This document shows positions 49,700 to 61,489 of a DNA stretch of 64,000 bases, one piece after another (position 1 is the stretch's first letter; each line of letters opens with the position of its first letter). The position numbers and the translations under genes were made by a program. Source of the DNA: Naegleria gruberi (Eukaryota). The notes beneath the pieces are model-generated. The model was not told the origin of the DNA. It did no database searches and saw nothing but the letters and a program-made list of their open reading frames with translations. The stretch is from NCBI GenBank assembly GCA_000004985.1, contig GG738922.1; one strand, written 5' to 3'.

Positions 49700-51763
49700 T
49701 TACAATCGTTCCCAAGAGCACGTACCATTTCTGTTTCTTACCACAGTCACCGTTTCATAGGGAGGCAATCTGTTGCGCCAAACCTGTCTGTTTTGATGGT
49801 TTCTCTTGTTGTTTCTTTGAAAGTAGAATTCACCATAATCTGTCAATACTAATTTCAATTCAATGGTATTCAATTTTTGAACATCACTCACAACAGGAAT
49901 CATCCAATTTAAAATTTTAACCAAACCTTGTTTAAACTCAATGACACGTTCTCTTCTTGCTGCATCTGCAGAGTAGGCCTTATTGTTAATGCCTGATACT
50001 ATTTCTCCTGCTAATTGCATGCTTCTTATTGATGATGCTTGAATACTACTAAAGTTAAAGTTGGATCCCTTTAAATTGAGAACTTTCAATGATGATCCGA
50101 AAGGACAACTTATTAAATGATAAATGAATGAAGGCCTTAGTTTAGAGTTAGTAATAGACAATTCCTCTAATATTTGGAAATTTATCAAACCATCATCCAA
50201 GGAATCCATCTTATTCAAGTGTAGTACTTTCAATAAATGGCCAGAAGCTGATCCAAGCATTGAAATTGCATCCTTTGTGAGGGTGCACTCTACGAAACTA
50301 ATCTTTCGTAGGCCTAAATTTTCATTAGTCGGATCAATGTTTTTCATATGTGGTTCGATAGCTCTACAAAAATCACCAACTTGCGCATTTCCCAATAAAC
50401 CTAATACTGCTGTATGAACGTGGCACGATTTTTCAAAAACATTTGAAAAAAAATTGGCATCAGCCTTAATACTCAATACTAGATACTTGACATTTTCAAA
50501 TAACGGTTTCAACTCTGTAAAATTATATTCCACAAAAAACCGATTATCTATCCATTGAAGATATTCAAGATTTGGAAACGGACCAAAACTGGATAATCGA
50601 TGGCTATGATTGAATCCCTTAAAGTCAATAAATTTAACAGTATACCTAAAAATATTAATTAAATATTCAAATAATGCTTTTCCAGTTAAATATTTCACAT
50701 TTGGAAATACTTTTGGTACAATAAAATCCAACACTTTTGGAGTTAGTATTTCAGTAGCGATTGGAGTATTAGGATCCTCCAGTAATGGTTGTATAATATG
50801 ATGATTCAAGTTGCAATAGTCTAGTAGAGCATCCTCTACAATACAAGTTAGAATGGGTGTTTTTGGCTTTTCAATTTTTGTTAAATCCAATTTTTCCTCA
50901 TTTTCAATACTGTCAATTATCAAGTCCTTTTCACAAAATGTGGTAAAGAAATCAAAATGATGCCAAGTAGAAATTACGTATCGTTCATATTTAGATATGG
51001 AATCATTCCAATCTTTACAAACAAGATTAATACTTTTGTGAAGCATTTTCCAATCTAAGAATGAAAATATTTGCAACAACAATTCATAAGGCATTACTCC
51101 AAATATTCCAAGTCTAGTTTCTCTCTTCTTTAGAATTTCATTGAGAGCAGTTTTGAGTTTCCTCACTTTCTGTTTATCAGATCTTGGAGGAAGATTTGTT
51201 TCTGTTGGTATCTTGTTGGTTGTGATGGCCATCTTGGTTTTTCTGCTTGGTTGTTTGAGCGTTTTCTTTACAGCTTGTTCCTTCTTTTCTTGAATTTCCT
51301 TCTTTACAGATGGAATTAGAAACTTCAAATGATCTAAAATTGAAAAGTTACAATTCTTTGGAAGAAATGATGAAGGTACGGAATAGAGATTTGTTGGTAT
51401 TCGTTTAGATAAATGACAAACAACACTTTCTAAATCTCCCAATTTATCAAAATCTTCACCACAATCGTGAGCATTATTCTTCTGTTTTAATGCATCATTA
51501 GAAAGACGTTGTAATTCTTCTTCTCCCAAAGATGATGATGATTCACTACCAGTTGTAATTTTCCTAGCCTTTGCTTCCTTTTCATATCCGAATTCGTGAT
51601 GTAAAAAGGCTTTGATAGCCAATTCTTCCGAAGATGTATTTTGTGAAGATGTTGCTGCTGGTCTTTTCCTCTGATTATTCTGTTGATTTTGTTGTTGGTA
51701 TTGTGTTGGCTTTGCACTCTTCTTATTGTTGCTATTTGAAGCAGAAGATGAGGAGGGTTTCAT
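49700..51763 (-). CDS. F-box protein
   Basis: The ORF is open from 51868 but the 5' part is AT-rich junk. The likely start is ATG 51763 (MKPSSSSASN...). The F-box reads RLGIFGVMPYELLLQIFSFLDWKMLHKSINLVCKDWNDSIS. The ~450-aa C-terminal region may contain degenerate LRRs. Confidence 0.7.
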   Translation of the reverse strand: MKPSSSSASNSNNKKSAKPTQYQQQNQQNNQRKRPAATSSQNTSSEELAIKAFLHHEFGYEKEAKARKITTGSESSSSLGEEELQRLSNDALKQKNNAHDCGEDFDKLGDLESVVCHLSKRIPTNLYSVPSSFLPKNCNFSILDHLKFLIPSVKKEIQEKKEQAVKKTLKQPSRKTKMAITTNKIPTETNLPPRSDKQKVRKLKTALNEILKKRETRLGIFGVMPYELLLQIFSFLDWKMLHKSINLVCKDWNDSISKYERYVISTWHHFDFFTTFCEKDLIIDSIENEEKLDLTKIEKPKTPILTCIVEDALLDYCNLNHHIIQPLLEDPNTPIATEILTPKVLDFIVPKVFPNVKYLTGKALFEYLINIFRYTVKFIDFKGFNHSHRLSSFGPFPNLEYLQWIDNRFFVEYNFTELKPLFENVKYLVLSIKADANFFSNVFEKSCHVHTAVLGLLGNAQVGDFCRAIEPHMKNIDPTNENLGLRKISFVECTLTKDAISMLGSASGHLLKVLHLNKMDSLDDGLINFQILEELSITNSKLRPSFIYHLISCPFGSSLKVLNLKGSNFNFSSIQASSIRSMQLAGEIVSGINNKAYSADAARRERVIEFKQGLVKILNWMIPVVSDVQKLNTIELKLVLTDYGEFYFQRNNKRNHQNRQVWRNRLPPYETVTVVRNRNGTCSWERL

Positions 51764-52499
51764 TTTCAAGAGAAGAGAAAGAAGGGCATCAAAGTTTAAA
51801 TATTTTTTTTGATTAATAAAAATAAAAAAAATTAAATAGAGGACAATCATCGTCGAATAGTTAATCAATGCTTGGCACTGCGGATTTTGTATAATATTTG
51901 GTGGAAACTTCCAACCTTTAAATATTCATCACCACAATTTTCAACATCCAACTCCAATGTTGTTCTTGGAAACGATTTTATTGGAGAGTAGAAGTACCCT
52001 GCAAATATCTTGATGATATCAAAATCACCATCATCAGCACATTTACTTGGTCATCACAAAAACTGTTAATTGGGGATTGCTCGGAATGGTCAATAGTATG
52101 TGTGGGGTGAATCTTGATTTTTGTCATGAAATCGGTACAAGATTATTTTCACATGTACACAACCTCATCAACCAAATACAAGCTTTCTTCTAGTAATAGT
52201 ACTATTTAATTTTCGCAACAACATCTTCATCATTACTTGGTAATATTGTCATGGTGTGGAGGTTGGATACCACAAAGCTTCATATCATCTCAACATAATC
52301 TAAATAGTAATAATAGTAATTTTTATTAGCGGATTATCATCATTTAAGAACATCCCTTCATGCTTCGGAATACATGAGTTGGAGAACCAGCAACTTGGAT
52401 TGTTGGAAATAGTCAACAGTAGCAATTTGTCCTTGGATTTTCATCGGGAATTTCAGAAACAAAAACCTTTGAAAAAAGAGTTTTTAAACCTTATATTGT

Positions 52500-54835: not shown

Positions 54836-56440
54836 TTAAGGTAAGGCCGTTATGCCTGTGAGCGCTGAAGTTTCTGCCAACATCAACTTGTTTTGTTTGG
54901 CAAAGAGAAACATTTCCTCTCTTGAAATTCTCCAACAAACTCTTGGAAGATCACACTTGGTGGCCAACAGCAAAAATTGGGTTGCTTGAATTCCGGTGCC
55001 TCCGTTCTTAATGATTGATTGTATTTGTGGAAAAACATTTTCCTTTGTGTCCGTAACTGAAAAGCAAATTACTAAGCTGGTTGACTTATAGTTAAGCGAA
55101 ACTTTAGGAGAGTAAACACCCGTGTGGTAAATGTTTTGGTAGTAAATATTGACCTTCTCATGAGAATTGGAATGGAAAGTATTGTATGCGAATTGATGAA
55201 GTAAACTGTTAGCTCCTGAATCGTTTCCTATTCCTACACAAATGATGTAGCTATACCGGCTCTGGAATGTTTTGTGATTTCTGGCCAATTTGAAATCTTC
55301 CAATGGGTATTTTGTCTGGATTTCTTTTGGTATTTCTATACAACTGGAGAGTGTATAAGTTCTAACAAAAAAACAGTAACGAGCCAAATAGATAAGAAGT
55401 GGTCGCACAGAGTCAATATAATCCATTTCTAGCAAGGATTGTAGGACTAGGAGGGCATTATCAATTCCCCTGGTAGACTCCTTAATGACATGTGCACAAT
55501 AATTTGAGAGAATGTCAAATCCAACCATGTCGCAATAAAGCATCAACTCAATAGCAATGCTGTCATTTTGAATATTTCCAGTCATGATAAAGAGCAGAAT
55601 AGTTTCCAACAAGGAGGAGCTAACATCCATTGGTACAATTCTCTGAGAGCATTCTATCATTCCACTCGAGAGCAATGTGTTGAAAAAAGGAGATCTATAC
55701 CTAATAATGTCATTGGTAATTTGCAATACTTTTCCAGGATTGGAATCAGATATTTCATCAACATTAGAAGTGAAATAAACCAATGATTCTGAGGGCTTAT
55801 CGTCTACAGAGCCATTTAACCACTTTTGAATGCAATTCTCCCATGATCCAATGAATTCATCAATGCAAAATGTTGGATTGAAATTTCGTCCACATCCACT
55901 CAAGTAAGATCCGAACTCTTTGGAAATTGTCAAATCAAAAAACTTGGAAATTAGTAATAAATCATAAACATAAAATTCAGAATCAAAAATGTATGGACTA
56001 ATCTCCATTCCTCCTTCCATTCTTCCATACTCAAAGTAATCTATTATCAAATAAGGACAATAGAGTCCCACCACTAATAGATCAATAACATTCTCCAGAT
56101 ATTTTTGTTTCTCTTTGATATTGTATAGATATACCAATCCTTTGAACTGTTTCTTGGCTATTTCGAATGTAAATTCCAATTCCTCTCCCTCCTTCACTTG
56201 CTTGCTAATCAATTTACTGAATGTGCTTACAATTTCCGTATGTATGTGTTTCGTAATTGAAATCTTTGTACCATCCACAATAAAGTGAAAGGTAAAGCAT
56301 TCACTTGAAAAATTTTGCAATTCAGCCTTTTCCTCTTCTATTATTGTTGTGTTTCTATTTAAATTACTTATCCTCTTTTCGTTTCGTATAATAATTGGTC
56401 CAAGCCAATCAATTTCTCTCTTATCCATACGTTTGGACAT
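54836..56440 (-). CDS. BTB/POZ-domain protein with C-terminal degenerate Ras-superfamily GTPase-like domain
   Basis: 534-aa ORF. The central BTB-like region reads VLQITNDIIRYRSPFFNTLLSSGMIECSQRIVPMDVSSSLLETILLFIMTGNI...ELMLYCDMVGFDILSNYCAHVI. The C-terminal ~150 aa align to small-GTPase blocks but with degraded motifs: G1 VGIGNDSGAN instead of GxxxxGKS/T, G4 TKCD instead of NKxD, and G5 ETSAL instead of SAK. The protein ends 8 aa after G5. Confidence 0.65.
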   Translation of the reverse strand: MSKRMDKREIDWLGPIIIRNEKRISNLNRNTTIIEEEKAELQNFSSECFTFHFIVDGTKISITKHIHTEIVSTFSKLISKQVKEGEELEFTFEIAKKQFKGLVYLYNIKEKQKYLENVIDLLVVGLYCPYLIIDYFEYGRMEGGMEISPYIFDSEFYVYDLLLISKFFDLTISKEFGSYLSGCGRNFNPTFCIDEFIGSWENCIQKWLNGSVDDKPSESLVYFTSNVDEISDSNPGKVLQITNDIIRYRSPFFNTLLSSGMIECSQRIVPMDVSSSLLETILLFIMTGNIQNDSIAIELMLYCDMVGFDILSNYCAHVIKESTRGIDNALLVLQSLLEMDYIDSVRPLLIYLARYCFFVRTYTLSSCIEIPKEIQTKYPLEDFKLARNHKTFQSRYSYIICVGIGNDSGANSLLHQFAYNTFHSNSHEKVNIYYQNIYHTGVYSPKVSLNYKSTSLVICFSVTDTKENVFPQIQSIIKNGGTGIQATQFLLLATKCDLPRVCWRISREEMFLFAKQNKLMLAETSALTGITALP

Positions 56441-57070
56441 TTCATTGAGAAATTTACAATAATCAGTTCCGATACTATCAATTAAATAAATATTAAATAA
56501 ATTAAAATAACATGATCAATATAACACCAACCTAACAATACCATTCAACCATCTCCTCGTAACTCTCTTCAAAGAACTATAAGAAGTGATTGAAGGCTTC
56601 ACCATCGGATAACTTTGATCAAAGTAAAATTCCAAACTCTTCTCAGCCATTTCCCGCGTCATTTCAGTGTAGACTAAATTATCATCTCCAGCAGAAACAG
56701 ACGATGATGGTCTTGTTGATTTGCTCATTTTTTTTGGTGATCATCTTCTCCAAGTGGTTCGGCCAAGTTCTTGTAAACTCTTTGTAAAAGTCAATTTTAC
56801 TAAAACAATTTAATAATACTATCAACAATGAAATACATCATACAATAATTGTAATTGAAGAACTTATTGTTTGCATTGCAAGAATACCTCGTTCAAGAGA
56901 AGTCCCCCGGAATAATTTAGTGAGCTTAGCTATTTTCAAGTCTAATCGAACAGTTACACTTTTGGTAATGAATAAAGAGACCATCAATTTTATTAAGTGA
57001 AGTTGTTTCTGAAATTGAAAATTGAAGGTTAATACAAGAAATTAAGATATTAAAATTTTGAAAATTCAAA

Positions 57071-59507
57071 TCAAACTGTTCTTGCTGTATCGTCTGACAA
57101 GTCTTTCACAATGTTATCATCAATGTTGTCCTCATTGTTGTGGTCATTGTCAACTAAATTTTCATTTTGGGTGATGTTATTAGTTGATAAAGTTGTTGGC
57201 TGGGTTGGTGGTTGATTTCCATCTATTTGAATAAACCTTGCCATCTTTGCATTTTCCACAAAAATAGCTTGGGAAAGGTTAATAATTGCTGGTGTGGAGG
57301 TTTTCAAGTCGTCAAAGTATTTTGCTGCTTTTCTTGTTTCCTTTTCAACTCCAGATACTGGCATAATTCCATCGTTATCCGTGGCAACTGTTAAGCAATT
57401 AATATCTACAGGAATTGACAAATCGTGGAAATCAAAGAGTAAATATTCATTACTTGTTGGACACCATTCAAAGAACACCTTCTTGTCTTTCATAATAATT
57501 TCTCTATAATTTTTCATTCTGTTAAATACTTCTTCATTATAAAAAGGTCCAGATCCTTGTTCCAACATAAATCCAACACCATGACCCAATCTCAATTTTG
57601 CCTTCATATTTTTGCAAATTTCAATAATTGACCAAAATGTAATGTCCATATGCTTCAAGAAGAATGTTTTATCCTCATCTATAAAAGTGTTCTCTCCACA
57701 GTGATATCTTAATCCTAATAATTTTCCTGTTTTCTTATTGTAAAGTTCAGCTATTCTCCAAAAACATTTCAAAACAAAAACGCATGGAGCAAAATACTTT
57801 TCATCTCCAACCCAATCAAATCCAACAACTGCACCAACATCAATTACCTTCTCTATTTTAAGCAATTTGAAGAGCTTATCGATTTGTGCCTCAAGTTCAT
57901 TGCCATCATTTACAATGCAAAGTTGTTCCAATGTTTTTGTGAAAATTTGTTCTGAGAAAGCTTGTTTTAAATACTTTTGACTGCAACAGAAATCGAATTT
58001 TTCAGTATCTGACATACCTTCCTTAAAGTGACATGTTATTTCTATTCATTGCGGCCAAAAAGTAATAATAAAATTGTTTGCTTTCATCATTATGCTTAAT
58101 TTCTAAGTGATTATCAACGTGGACTAATTTAATATCTTCATCGGTTAGAAGAGATCTGTACCTGTTCCAAAAAGTCTCTAATGTTGAGGGTTTCAAATAC
58201 TTTGAGATTGAATCTGTTTTCAAATCTTTCAGACTAACACTATATTCAACATACTCAACTCCTTCTTTGTAGTAGTTATAAATGGTATGCAGTAAGAGTA
58301 TGGATAATATTTCAGGATACATAAAATACATGCTATCTTTCAAAATGAATCTTTGTGGATAAAAATCTGGTGTGAATTTGACATTATGAACACCTACAAG
58401 TTTCATTTCAAATGAAAGCAATAAAGTGTTGTAAAGAACTCGCTTTGTAGGGTCAGGCTTTCTTTTTTCATCTGCATCTAACTTTGCTATAATTTGTGCA
58501 TTTGTAAAACCATATTTCAATTCGTATTTTTCTTCTCTTTGGTTGAATACATAGTAATTTTTTGGTTTTGCGCCAATTACTTTACTAATATTAGCAATTT
58601 GTTCCTTTTTGGGTAATGTGAATAAATTGAAAGCTCTGCTCAAATCTTCTAAACTGTACACAACATCATTGGTATGAACTGCTTTTAAGGAAAGCACTTC
58701 TGATTCCAAAGTAAGGTTGTCTATGTCTGCATTGGTGAACAAACTTGATTTAGTAAGTGTAGAACTGATGTCAAGCGGAACGATTGGCAAAGCTTGCACA
58801 AGATTTGGGATATACTTTTTCATGATTACTTCAATCCAGAAATCAGCATTACCCATACCCATTAAATGAGTGTGGAGTTCTGAAAGCTGGTATGAATTAC
58901 CAATAGGTATGTTTTGATCTGTCACTTTTTGAGGTGGTTGATAATATGAAGGATCGTTTGTTGCTTTAACTGAATGTTCCTCTAGTACAACAGGAGGAAT
59001 ATAATCTCTTTCATTGAACTCTTCATCATAGCTTGTATAAATCCATTTGGAGTCTCCTACTTCAACCAATAAGCCTTTTTCACCTGGTGTTGGTTGGAAG
59101 CAGACAGAAATTTCTTCATCATAATGTGTGAATAAATCTATAGCTGAATTCTTTTTAATTGAAATGTAATCTAAAGGGAGTGAAGAATATTTGCTCCACC
59201 TATCCTTAGCGTTAGAGTCAGCAATAGGAGGTACTTTTTTAAGATAAAGTTTGGCATTTGGAAGTTTCTGTTGTAATTCTAAAACATGTTCCTTAGAGAA
59301 AGATGTTGCACTGTATTTGAGGGAGAGAAAATTAAAGAATGGCTCTGGTGGTGCAGAAGAAAGACTCATAGCTCCTCGCAGCGTTAAGTTTCTAAGAACA
59401 GGAGTATTGGTTTTTGAAATTCCATTCAAAAATGTTCCATGAATATTAGGATTTTCTTTACCAAGGGTTTGGTACCTGTCATTATCTCTCTGGTTTGGGA
59501 TCCGCAC
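57071..59507 (-). CDS. divergent AMP/adenosine deaminase family protein (A_deaminase fold), encoded as two ORFs in different frames 7 nt apart (probable frameshift or sequencing error); 5' end overlaps a repeat
   Basis: ORF 58023..59507 carries the N-terminal metal motif LSELHTHLMGMGNADFWIEVIMK, comparable to DTHIHAxxCMNQKHLLRFIK of AMP deaminases. ORF 57071..58015 carries LRYHCGENTF, RLGHGVG, EWCPTSNEYLLF and TVATDNDG, in the same order and spacing as the PHCGE, GHG, SPLSNN and STDDP blocks of AMP deaminase. Deleting one T from the CTTT run at the junction fuses the two frames (..MSLKEGMSDTEK..). Confidence 0.6.
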
Positions 59508-61171: not shown

Positions 61172-61489
61172 TTATGTCAAAGTTCTATAGNNNNNNNNNN
61201 NNNNNNNNNNNNNNNNNNNNNNNNNNNNNNNNNNNNNNNNTTTATCTAAAACCATTTTACTTTCTTCGAAATTTTCTTTTGTTACCTGAAAACAATCTAA
61301 AAATTTGAACACTGCTAACTTTTCTTCCTTGTTGGTACAAAGTTTGATATAACGTTCCATTTTGTATTGTATAACTGTATCCAAATGTTGTTTGTTTGTC
61401 TTGCAAGTGATGTACCATGGTAGGAGATGTTTTGCACCAATAAACCTTGCAATCTTAAACACAACTTCGGAAGAAAGTGTTGTTTTCAT
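61172..61489 (-). pseudogene. F-box family gene fragment truncated by assembly gap
   Basis: The ORF reads MKTTLSSEVVFKIARFIGAKHLLPWYITCKTNKQHL.., which follows the F-box pattern of the 4408 and 27193 genes. It runs into the 50-N gap at 61191-61240 and there is no continuation beyond. Confidence 0.35.
61191..61240. other. assembly gap (50 N)
   Basis: Run of N. Confidence 0.95.

What the first reader, a model, noticed from the sequence alone, without database searches (positions are those of the whole stretch)
54836..56728. BTB/POZ protein with a C-terminal degenerate Ras-like GTPase domain, the reverse of RhoBTB order, plus an in-frame TGA-separated upstream ORF
RhoBTB/RacA-type proteins have the GTPase first and the BTB domains after it. 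Here a recognisable BTB fold is followed by a small-GTPase-like domain whose nucleotide-binding motifs are all degraded: the P-loop lacks GKS/T, G4 is TKCD and G5 is SAL, and the chain stops 8 aa after G5. This predicts a pseudo-GTPase, possibly a Cullin-3 adaptor with a GTPase-shaped interaction module. Separately, the 70-aa ORF 56516..56728 lies in the same frame as the main ORF and is separated from it only by one TGA (..RLVLY*SCYFNLF..MSKRMDK). No canonical GT donor allows an intron to remove this stop. This suggests either a point-mutated longer ancestral gene or a sequencing error.
Basis: partly seen in the sequence, partly recalled or inferred. Interest (0 to 1): 0.5.

Follow-up and report, generated by a model that had tools for sequence, protein, structure and literature searches.

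The report
Naegleria BTB protein with dead Ras-like tail
This is a real two-exon Naegleria gruberi gene for a probable ubiquitin-ligase adaptor (BTB domain) that ends in a Ras-shaped domain which has lost its nucleotide-binding loop; the "stray stop codon" is simply inside a short intron, and similar BTB-plus-GTPase proteins are already described in Naegleria.

Summary
The window is Naegleria gruberi, not a dictyostelid. The 534-aa ORF is 100% identical to XP_002669860.1. The BTB domain is real (Pfam; SPOP, KEAP1 and KBTBD are the closest solved structures).

The C-terminal 156 aa are a genuine small-GTPase fold:
- Pfam Ras E=2.4e-7.
- AF2 model pLDDT 70.5.

G1 (GKS becomes GAN) and G3 (D becomes Y) are dead in every relative that has them. 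Switch II and the beta2-3 hairpin are shortened, and helix alpha5 is missing. G4 (TKCD) and G5 (ETSAL) are canonical in N. gruberi, not "degraded".

The in-frame TGA lies in a canonical 57-nt GT..AG intron (56531..56475). Splicing gives a 611-aa protein colinear with the N. fowleri and N. lovaniensis orthologues, so the public model lacks 77 N-terminal residues.

In the library of 1.84e9 representative proteins only five entries match beyond the BTB stretch. Three span most of the profile, one lacks the Ras-like part, and one is a 54-aa fragment. In two metagenomic relatives the Ras-like part is reduced to out-of-frame remnants. In Naegleria it is under purifying selection (dN/dS 0.28).

The best reading is a Cul3-type adaptor with a pseudoGTPase interaction module. 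BTB-before-GTPase proteins in Naegleria are already published, so this is a modest new variant.

The parts
56532..56728 (-). Exon 1: start codon (56726-56728) through the first two bases of codon 66. It encodes the N-terminal 65 aa missing from the public model XP_002669860.1.
   Evidence: It aligns with the N-termini of P0002 and P0003 from M1 onward.
56475..56531 (-). 57-nt GT..AG intron (AG|GTTGGT ... TTGATAG|T), length divisible by 3. It contains the in-frame TGA at 56516-56518.
   Evidence: Of 11 in-frame GT-AG options, only this one gives a junction colinear with the orthologues. N. fowleri has no intron here.
54836..56474 (-). Exon 2, including the TAA stop (54836-54838). Together with exon 1 it gives a 611-aa protein.
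   Evidence: The 534-aa part from ATG 56440 is 100% identical to XP_002669860.1.
55842..56378 (-). Family-specific middle region (about aa 117-295 of 611). It is conserved in all five relatives (YCPYL, FDKDFY motifs) and has no detectable known domain.
   Evidence: No hit in Pfam, PDB sequence search or hhalign against the BTB. Conservation is shown. Coordinates are approximate.
55487..55702 (-). Core of the BTB/POZ domain (Pfam match, aa 324-395 of 611). It includes the SGMIE phi-x-E motif at 55652-55666. Helices resembling the start of a 3-box follow, to about 55307.
   Evidence: Pfam PF00651. Profile against PDB: SPOP 6.3e-8, then KEAP1 and KBTBD2/4. S, G, M and E are invariant in five relatives. 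Coordinates.
54839..55306 (-). Ras-like pseudoGTPase domain (aa 456-611).
55205..55234 (-). Degenerate G1 / P-loop equivalent, GIGNDSGANS. The GKS of Ras aligns with GAN.
   Evidence: The SGAN motif is conserved in the three Naegleria species; P0004 has SGRY.
55118..55135 (-). Degenerate G3 equivalent, NIYHTG. The DxxG Asp aligns with Tyr, no catalytic Gln is present, and switch II is shortened.
   Evidence: MAFFT alignment with HRas, Rab11A and Rac1. Coordinates.
54950..54961 (-). G4 motif TKCD, canonical [NT]KxD. It is TMCD in N. fowleri, N. lovaniensis and P0004.
54860..54874 (-). G5 motif ETSAL, canonical, followed by only 7 residues. Helix alpha5 is absent.
   Evidence: There is no GT between ETSAL and the stop (read directly from the sequence).

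Best explanation
The locus is a two-exon Naegleria gruberi gene for a 611-aa protein. In order, the protein has a family-specific N-terminal and middle region, one SPOP/KEAP1-type BTB domain followed by helices resembling the start of a 3-box, and a C-terminal Ras/Rab-like domain.

Most likely mechanism (inferred, not shown). The BTB domain dimerises and docks onto Cullin-3 through its conserved M-x-E loop. The Ras-like domain no longer works as a GTP switch, because it has lost the P-loop Lys/Ser, the DxxG Asp and the switch-II Gln. Instead it serves as a fixed, GTPase-shaped protein-binding module. It would either recruit substrates or fold back on the BTB as a regulator, as proposed for RhoBTB.

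The upstream 'ORF plus TGA' is just exon 1 and a 57-nt intron, so the public gene model is N-terminally truncated.
For: Shown:
- Identity to XP_002669860.1.
- A canonical intron, and colinearity of the spliced product with N. fowleri (single exon) and N. lovaniensis.
- BTB by Pfam in three species. The closest solved relatives are the Cul3 adaptors SPOP (6e-8), KEAP1 and KBTBD2/4. The SPOP M-E-E loop aligns with G-M-x-E, and SGMxE is invariant in five relatives.
- G1 and G3 are degenerate in all four relatives that have the region.
- Purifying selection, N. fowleri against N. lovaniensis: dN/dS is 0.155 overall, 0.071 for the BTB and 0.279 for the Ras-like domain, at dS about 0.9.

Context: Herman et al. 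2021 propose GTPase-linked ubiquitination for the many Naegleria BTB- and F-box-GTPase fusions. The RhoBTB autoinhibition model is in PMC4931677.
Against: - No experiment or complex model shows Cul3 binding. BTB domains can also act purely as oligomerisation modules.
- No expression or RNA evidence was available for the intron.
- N. gruberi keeps canonical TKCD and SAL, so residual guanine-nucleotide binding cannot be excluded.
- The Ras-like domain is the least constrained part. In two metagenomic relatives it has decayed to out-of-frame remnants, so it is not essential to the family's core function.
- The full-length AF2 model was useless (pLDDT 37), so nothing is known about contacts between domains.
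- The domain model rests on only five sequences.
Confidence: 0.6

Rival explanations
1. The Ras-like domain is still a nucleotide-binding switch with a non-canonical P-loop. In that case GTP/GDP state, or another nucleotide as in RhoBTB3 which uses ATP, would gate adaptor activity.
For: In N. gruberi and the P0019 remnant, G4 (TKCD) and G5 (ETSAL) are canonical. The G4 Asp, the CD[LI]P motif and ETSAL are invariant across all five sequences. RhoBTB proteins with atypical G domains still bind GTP or ATP (PMC4931677).
Against: The P-loop Lys and the Mg-binding Ser/Thr are replaced (GAN, or GRY in P0004). The DxxG Asp is Tyr, and switch II and the beta2-3 hairpin are shortened. The G4 Lys is Met in three of the five sequences. 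Helix alpha5 is missing.
Confidence: 0.15
2. The BTB domain acts only as a self-association or scaffold module, with no ubiquitin-ligase role. The protein would then be a lineage-specific scaffold whose function lies mainly in the conserved N-terminal and middle regions.
For: About 295 N-terminal residues are conserved across all five relatives but match nothing known. Relatives without the Ras-like domain keep the N-terminal, middle and BTB parts.
Against: The best-matching solved BTBs are all Cul3 adaptors. The Cul3-contacting phi-x-E position is invariant, and similarity runs into the first 3-box helix of SPOP. The BTB is the most constrained region (dN/dS 0.071).
Confidence: 0.2
3. One reading: the TGA marks a point-mutated longer ancestral gene or a sequencing error, and the C-terminal degeneracy reflects a decaying pseudogene.
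For: The two ORFs share a frame, and the intron length is a multiple of 3. The public annotation starts at the downstream ATG. Relatives L003 and L006 do show real decay of the Ras-like part.
Against: The TGA sits inside a canonical GT..AG intron. Removing that intron gives exact colinearity with the orthologues, whereas retaining it would insert 19 residues that they lack. The 611-codon reading frame is intact. All domains are under purifying selection in Naegleria. The degenerate motifs are shared by three species.
Confidence: 0.04

Closest known systems
RhoBTB / RacA (atypical Rho GTPases with tandem BTB domains; Cul3 adaptors)
   Same: Both combine a Ras-superfamily domain with a Cul3-type BTB in one chain. 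In both, the G domain is atypical and probably regulatory or a binding module rather than a classical switch (PMC4931677).
   Different: The order is reversed: the G domain is C-terminal here. Only one BTB is detectable. There is no proline-rich linker, no bipartite BTB1 and no Rho insert. The G domain is closest to Rab/Ras rather than Rho. There is no sequence relationship beyond the generic domains. Naegleria also has bona fide RhoBTB genes.
Naegleria BTB- and F-box-GTPase fusions catalogued by Herman et al. 2021 (e.g. [quoted passage not shown]
   Same: Same genus and same design idea: a ubiquitin-ligase adaptor domain fused to a Ras-superfamily domain. In Ras34 the BTB lies N-terminal to the G domain.
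   Different: XP_002669860.1 does not appear in the stored text of their Table S8. It has no significant similarity to Ras34. Its G domain has lost G1 and G3 and is missed by Pfam when the whole protein is scanned.
PseudoGTPase domains embedded in larger proteins (p190RhoGAP pG1/pG2; Stiegler and Boggon 2017, PMC5593906)
   Same: Both have a G-domain fold with degenerate nucleotide-binding motifs, used as a structural or interaction module inside a multidomain protein (for the reference).
   Different: The protein context is different and there is no homology beyond the fold. Here G4 and G5 persist in some members and alpha5 is lost. The p190RhoGAP chains that the profile matched (3c5h, 6d4g) are its N-terminal GTPase domain, not pG1/pG2. 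Nucleotide binding has not been tested here.
SPOP / KEAP1 / KBTBD-type BTB-3-box Cul3 substrate adaptors
   Same: The BTB shows the best sequence similarity to these (SPOP 6.3e-8). The phi-x-E loop is conserved, and similarity continues into the first post-BTB helix.
   Different: The substrate-binding module would be a Ras-like domain, or the unknown N-terminal region, rather than MATH or Kelch. Cul3 binding has not been tested.

Membership tests
BTB/POZ domain (Pfam PF00651) | Profile match above the curated gathering score | tested here: met
   The ORF scores 21.7 bits against a cutoff of 20.5. The segment alone scores 24.2 bits, and the orthologues 37 bits.
Cul3-binding BTB adaptors (SPOP/KLHL/KEAP1 type) | phi-x-E motif in the alpha3-beta4 loop, and a 3-box helix pair after the BTB | tested here: inconclusive
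   M-x-E aligns with the SPOP M-E-E loop and is invariant in five relatives. Similarity extends only into the first post-BTB helix. Calling these the Cul3 contact residues rests on my own knowledge of the SPOP and KLHL complexes.
Cul3-binding BTB adaptors (SPOP/KLHL/KEAP1 type) | Physical binding to the Cullin-3 N-terminal domain | not testable with these tools
   No complex prediction or experiment was available.
Ras-superfamily small GTPase fold (Pfam PF00071 Ras) | Profile match above the gathering score, and a G-domain fold | tested here: met
Functional GTPase switch | G1 Walker A motif GxxxxGK[ST] | tested here: not met
   The motif is GIGNDSGANS. GKS aligns with GAN, or with GRY in P0004.
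Functional GTPase switch | G3 DxxG plus a catalytic Gln in switch II | tested here: not met
   NIYHTG: the Asp aligns with Tyr and three residues are deleted where the Gln would sit. The alignment in this region is of low confidence.
Functional GTPase switch | G4 [NT]KxD and G5 SA[KLT] | tested here: met
   N. gruberi has TKCD and ETSAL. G4 is TMCD in N. fowleri, N. lovaniensis and P0004.
RhoBTB subfamily | N-terminal Rho-type GTPase domain (with Rho insert), then a proline-rich linker, two BTB domains and a C-terminal BACK-like region | tested here: not met
   The G domain is C-terminal. The Rho insert is absent. Only one BTB was detected, and the middle region gave no BTB signal. The family definition is from PMC4931677.
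PseudoGTPase (nucleotide-free class) | G-domain fold with demonstrated lack of nucleotide binding | not testable with these tools
   Fold and motif loss are shown. Absence of binding is only inferred.

The most novel reading that the evidence does not exclude
A heterolobosean-specific Cul3 adaptor family uses a nucleotide-free Rab/Ras mimic that lacks alpha5 as its substrate receptor. The mimic would act as a permanent 'decoy GTPase' that captures GEFs, GAPs or effectors of a real small GTPase for ubiquitination. Sister lineages would be caught in the act of discarding this module.
Probability: 0.15. Interest if true: 0.55.

Novelty: new variant of a known kind. Interest (0 to 1): 0.3.

Why it matters
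- It corrects a public gene model. XP_002669860.1 lacks 77 N-terminal residues encoded by exon 1 and the first codons of exon 2.
- It adds an overlooked, highly degenerate member to the large set of Naegleria GTPase-plus-ubiquitin-adaptor fusions. The gene is annotated only as a BTB protein and does not appear in the stored text of the published Ras-superfamily census.
- It gives a small natural series of pseudoGTPase decay: an intact fold with dead G1 and G3, then a 66-aa remnant, then an 11-aa remnant.
- It does not open a new class of biology. The design (BTB plus Ras-superfamily domain, atypical G domain) is already known from RhoBTB and from other Naegleria proteins.

Tried and rejected
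- I guessed from the pattern FTFHFIVDGTKISITKHIH that aa 117-295 are a second, N-terminal BTB (a RhoBTB-like tandem). This was not supported. Pfam gave no BTB at E<=10. hhalign against the real BTB gave probability 0.4%. PDB profile searches returned only designed proteins.
- The full-length AF2 model from three sequences was unusable (pLDDT 37).
- I looked for a downstream exon encoding alpha5. There is no GT between ETSAL and the TAA, and all three Naegleria orthologues stop at the same place.
- Two metagenome DNA scans, with the family alignment and with P0019, found nothing.
- A profile re-search of the 5.8e9-protein database returned only the query, and the P0019 search returned only itself.
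- The spliced 611-aa protein could not be submitted to the structure, representative or contig look-up tools. P0001 has no gene record in the contig index.
- The afdb50 fold library was unavailable, so I could not survey other BTB-then-Ras proteins by structure.
- No significant similarity to Naegleria Ras34 was found.

Full report
**What is there.** On the minus strand, a 534-aa ORF (54836..56440) and a 70-aa ORF (56516..56728) lie in the same frame, separated by a single TGA at 56516-56518. The 534-aa product is 100% identical to XP_002669860.1 / EFC37116.1, 'POZ/BTB domain-containing protein [Naegleria gruberi strain NEG-M]'. The window is therefore Naegleria gruberi (Heterolobosea), about 33% GC, and not a dictyostelid.

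**The TGA is intronic.** The sequence AG|GTTGGTGTTATATTGATCATG...TTAATTGATAG|T is a canonical 57-nt GT..AG intron at 56531..56475, and it contains the TGA.
- Splicing gives a 611-aa protein. Its junction, RRWLNGIV-S-IGTDYCKF, is colinear residue for residue with the orthologues: EKWLNGIVQIGDDYTRM in N. fowleri (P0003, 665 aa) and the equivalent in N. lovaniensis (P0002, 677 aa). Their N-termini align from Met1.
- I enumerated all 11 in-frame GT-AG pairs that remove the stop. Only this pair avoids an indel relative to the orthologues.
- The N. fowleri gene is a single 1998-nt exon. The N. lovaniensis gene has one unrelated 80-nt intron inside the P-loop-equivalent region.
The public N. gruberi model is truncated by 77 residues. 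I could not obtain RNA evidence.

**The BTB domain.** Pfam BTB matches above its gathering score in N. gruberi (21.7 and 24.2 bits) and more strongly in the orthologues (37 bits, E about 3e-9).
- A three-species profile of this region finds SPOP (6.3e-8), then KEAP1, KBTBD2/4 and KLHL26. All of these are Cul3 adaptors.
- The alignment places the family's G-M-x-E on the SPOP M-E-E loop and runs into the first post-BTB helix. S, G, M and E of this motif are invariant in all five relatives.
- That this loop contacts Cul3 comes from my knowledge of the SPOP-Cul3 and KLHL-Cul3 structures. It was not tested here.

**The C-terminal domain.**
- Scanned alone, the last 145 aa hit Pfam Ras (PF00071) at E=2.4e-7, 30.9 bits against a cutoff of 21.6. 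The hit is missed when the whole ORF is scanned, and the two orthologues do not reach it.
- Family profiles against PDB sequences return almost only small GTPases (Rab4, Rab11, N/KRas, the p190RhoGAP N-terminal GTPase domain) at marginal E-values of 0.002-0.1.
- hhalign to HRas gives 92.9% probability over beta5-G4-alpha4-beta6-G5.
- An AF2 model of aa 456-611 was built from five family sequences only, with no canonical GTPases in the alignment. It reached pLDDT 70.5 and pTM 0.71.
- Foldseek against the PDB gave Rab4A 4.9e-7, with Rab8a, Rab1A, Rab6B, Rab11, KRas and MRas at TM 0.55-0.67.
- The fold assignment is solid. The affinity is Rab/Ras-like, and there is no Rho insert.

| Element | State in this family |
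|---|---|
| G1 | GIGNDSGANS. GKS aligns with GAN, so both the Lys and the Mg-binding Ser are lost. N. fowleri and N. lovaniensis have KSGANR; P0004 has KSGRYR |
| Switch I Thr | Not identifiable |
| beta2-beta3 hairpin | About 13 residues shorter |
| G3 | NIYHTG. Asp is replaced by Tyr, and three residues are missing where Gln61 would lie |
| G4 | TKCD in N. gruberi and in the P0019 remnant, which is the canonical [NT]KxD (Rac1 has TKLD). TMCD in the other three |
| G5 | ETSAL in all, identical to Rab4 and Rab11 |
| alpha5 | The chain ends 7-9 residues after SAL in all three Naegleria species, so alpha5 is absent. P0004 and P0019 have longer tails |

There is no GT between ETSAL and the stop, so a missed 3' exon is unlikely. 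The phosphate- and Mg-binding half of the site is dead and the base-binding half partly survives.

**Distribution and evolution.** An exhaustive HMM search of 1.84e9 representative proteins found five entries that match beyond the BTB stretch:
- P0003, standing for N. fowleri and presumably N. lovaniensis.
- P0001, the N. gruberi protein.
- P0004, an unnamed 623-aa protein from a Logan assembly.
- P0005, 444 aa, from a JGI metagenome.
- P0019, a 54-aa fragment.

All other hits were generic BTB matches.

P0005 stops right after the 'EDY' that precedes the G domain. Its locus (L006) carries only an out-of-frame 11-aa relic, IYETSTKLGINM*, before a convergent gene.

A related contig from the same sample (L003, and the identical L004) ends the BTB ORF after EDFTEGLRHHLTVL*. 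It then carries, in another frame, PPDCSVILVMTKCDLPK...ETSALLGINVNDALEALYYKQNEH. That corresponds to beta5 through alpha5 only, with the first 100 or so residues of the G domain gone. No relative has an intact P-loop, and one lineage is discarding the domain.

In Naegleria the domain is nonetheless maintained. Between N. fowleri and N. lovaniensis, dN/dS is 0.155 overall, 0.071 for the BTB and 0.279 for the Ras-like domain, at dS about 0.9-1.0 (Nei-Gojobori, near saturation).

**Mechanism.** The best-supported reading (confidence about 0.6) is a Cul3-type BTB adaptor whose C-terminal pseudoGTPase is a fixed protein-binding or autoregulatory module. The shown steps are the domain identities, the motif states, the conservation and the gene structure. 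The inferred steps are Cul3 binding, absence of nucleotide binding, and the role of the G domain. The rivals are a residual nucleotide switch (0.15), a BTB used only as a scaffold (0.2), and a pseudogene or sequencing error (0.04).

**Comparison with what is known.**
- It is not a RhoBTB. It fails on domain order, on the Rho insert, on the tandem BTBs and on the proline-rich linker.
- The broader design is already published for this genus. Herman et al. [quoted passage not shown] They suggest GTPase-dependent ubiquitination.
- Their Ras34 (XP_002681393.1) shows BTB features but no P-loop in the roughly 400 residues printed in the supplement. The Ras domain therefore presumably lies C-terminal to the BTB. 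This is an inference from a truncated listing.
- XP_002669860.1 does not appear in the stored text of that table. It is unrelated to Ras34 beyond the generic BTB.
- Embedded nucleotide-free pseudoGTPase domains are known from p190RhoGAP (PMC5593906).

**Verdict.** This is a real, conserved gene. The 'reverse RhoBTB' architecture is a lineage-specific variant of a known theme. Interest is modest, at 0.3.

Noticed in passing
window 57071-59507 (-): Two adjacent long ORFs (494 aa and 314 aa) lie immediately upstream. They carry adenosine/AMP-deaminase-like motifs (SELHTHLMG; GHGVGF; CPTSNEYL) but have no Pfam hit (E<=0.01 for the 494-aa ORF, E<=1 for the 314-aa ORF). They are probably one divergent amidohydrolase-type gene.
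   Followed up: partly
window 49700-51868 (-): A 722-aa ORF with an F-box-like domain (PF12937, E=5.5e-6). This is another putative ubiquitin-ligase adaptor close to the BTB gene.
   Followed up: partly
window about 61172-61489: An ORF translation contains a run of X, meaning a stretch of N (an assembly gap) in the window.
   Followed up: no
L005 4656-4735 (N. lovaniensis); L001 6001-7998 (N. fowleri): Intron positions are not conserved among the orthologues. N. lovaniensis has an 80-nt GTAAGT..CACAG intron splitting SGANR|LLHQ in the dead P-loop region. N. fowleri has none. N. gruberi has the 57-nt intron at codon 66.
   Followed up: yes
L003 687-902, L004 (identical), L006 2480-2520: Metagenomic relatives (JGI 3300002220 and ENA ERZ27315067) carry out-of-frame remnants of the Ras-like domain after the BTB ORF, of 66 aa and 11 aa. 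This looks like stepwise loss of the domain. It is unclear whether the frameshift is real or an assembly error shared by the two assemblies.
   Followed up: partly
L006 83-1002 (-): Next to the P0005 gene lies a gene pair called as F-box (weak) plus Ras/Roc. This is probably an F-box-GTPase fusion of the kind described for Naegleria.
   Followed up: no
window 54836-56440 (-): Pfam scanning of the whole 534-aa ORF reports only BTB. The Ras match (E=2.4e-7) appears only when the C-terminal 145 aa are scanned alone. This may explain why databases annotate the protein as BTB-only.
   Followed up: yes
P0002, P0003, P0004 N-termini: The relatives start with MGN or MGQ, a possible N-myristoylation site. 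N. gruberi starts with MSK, so this feature is not conserved in the window's gene.
   Followed up: no
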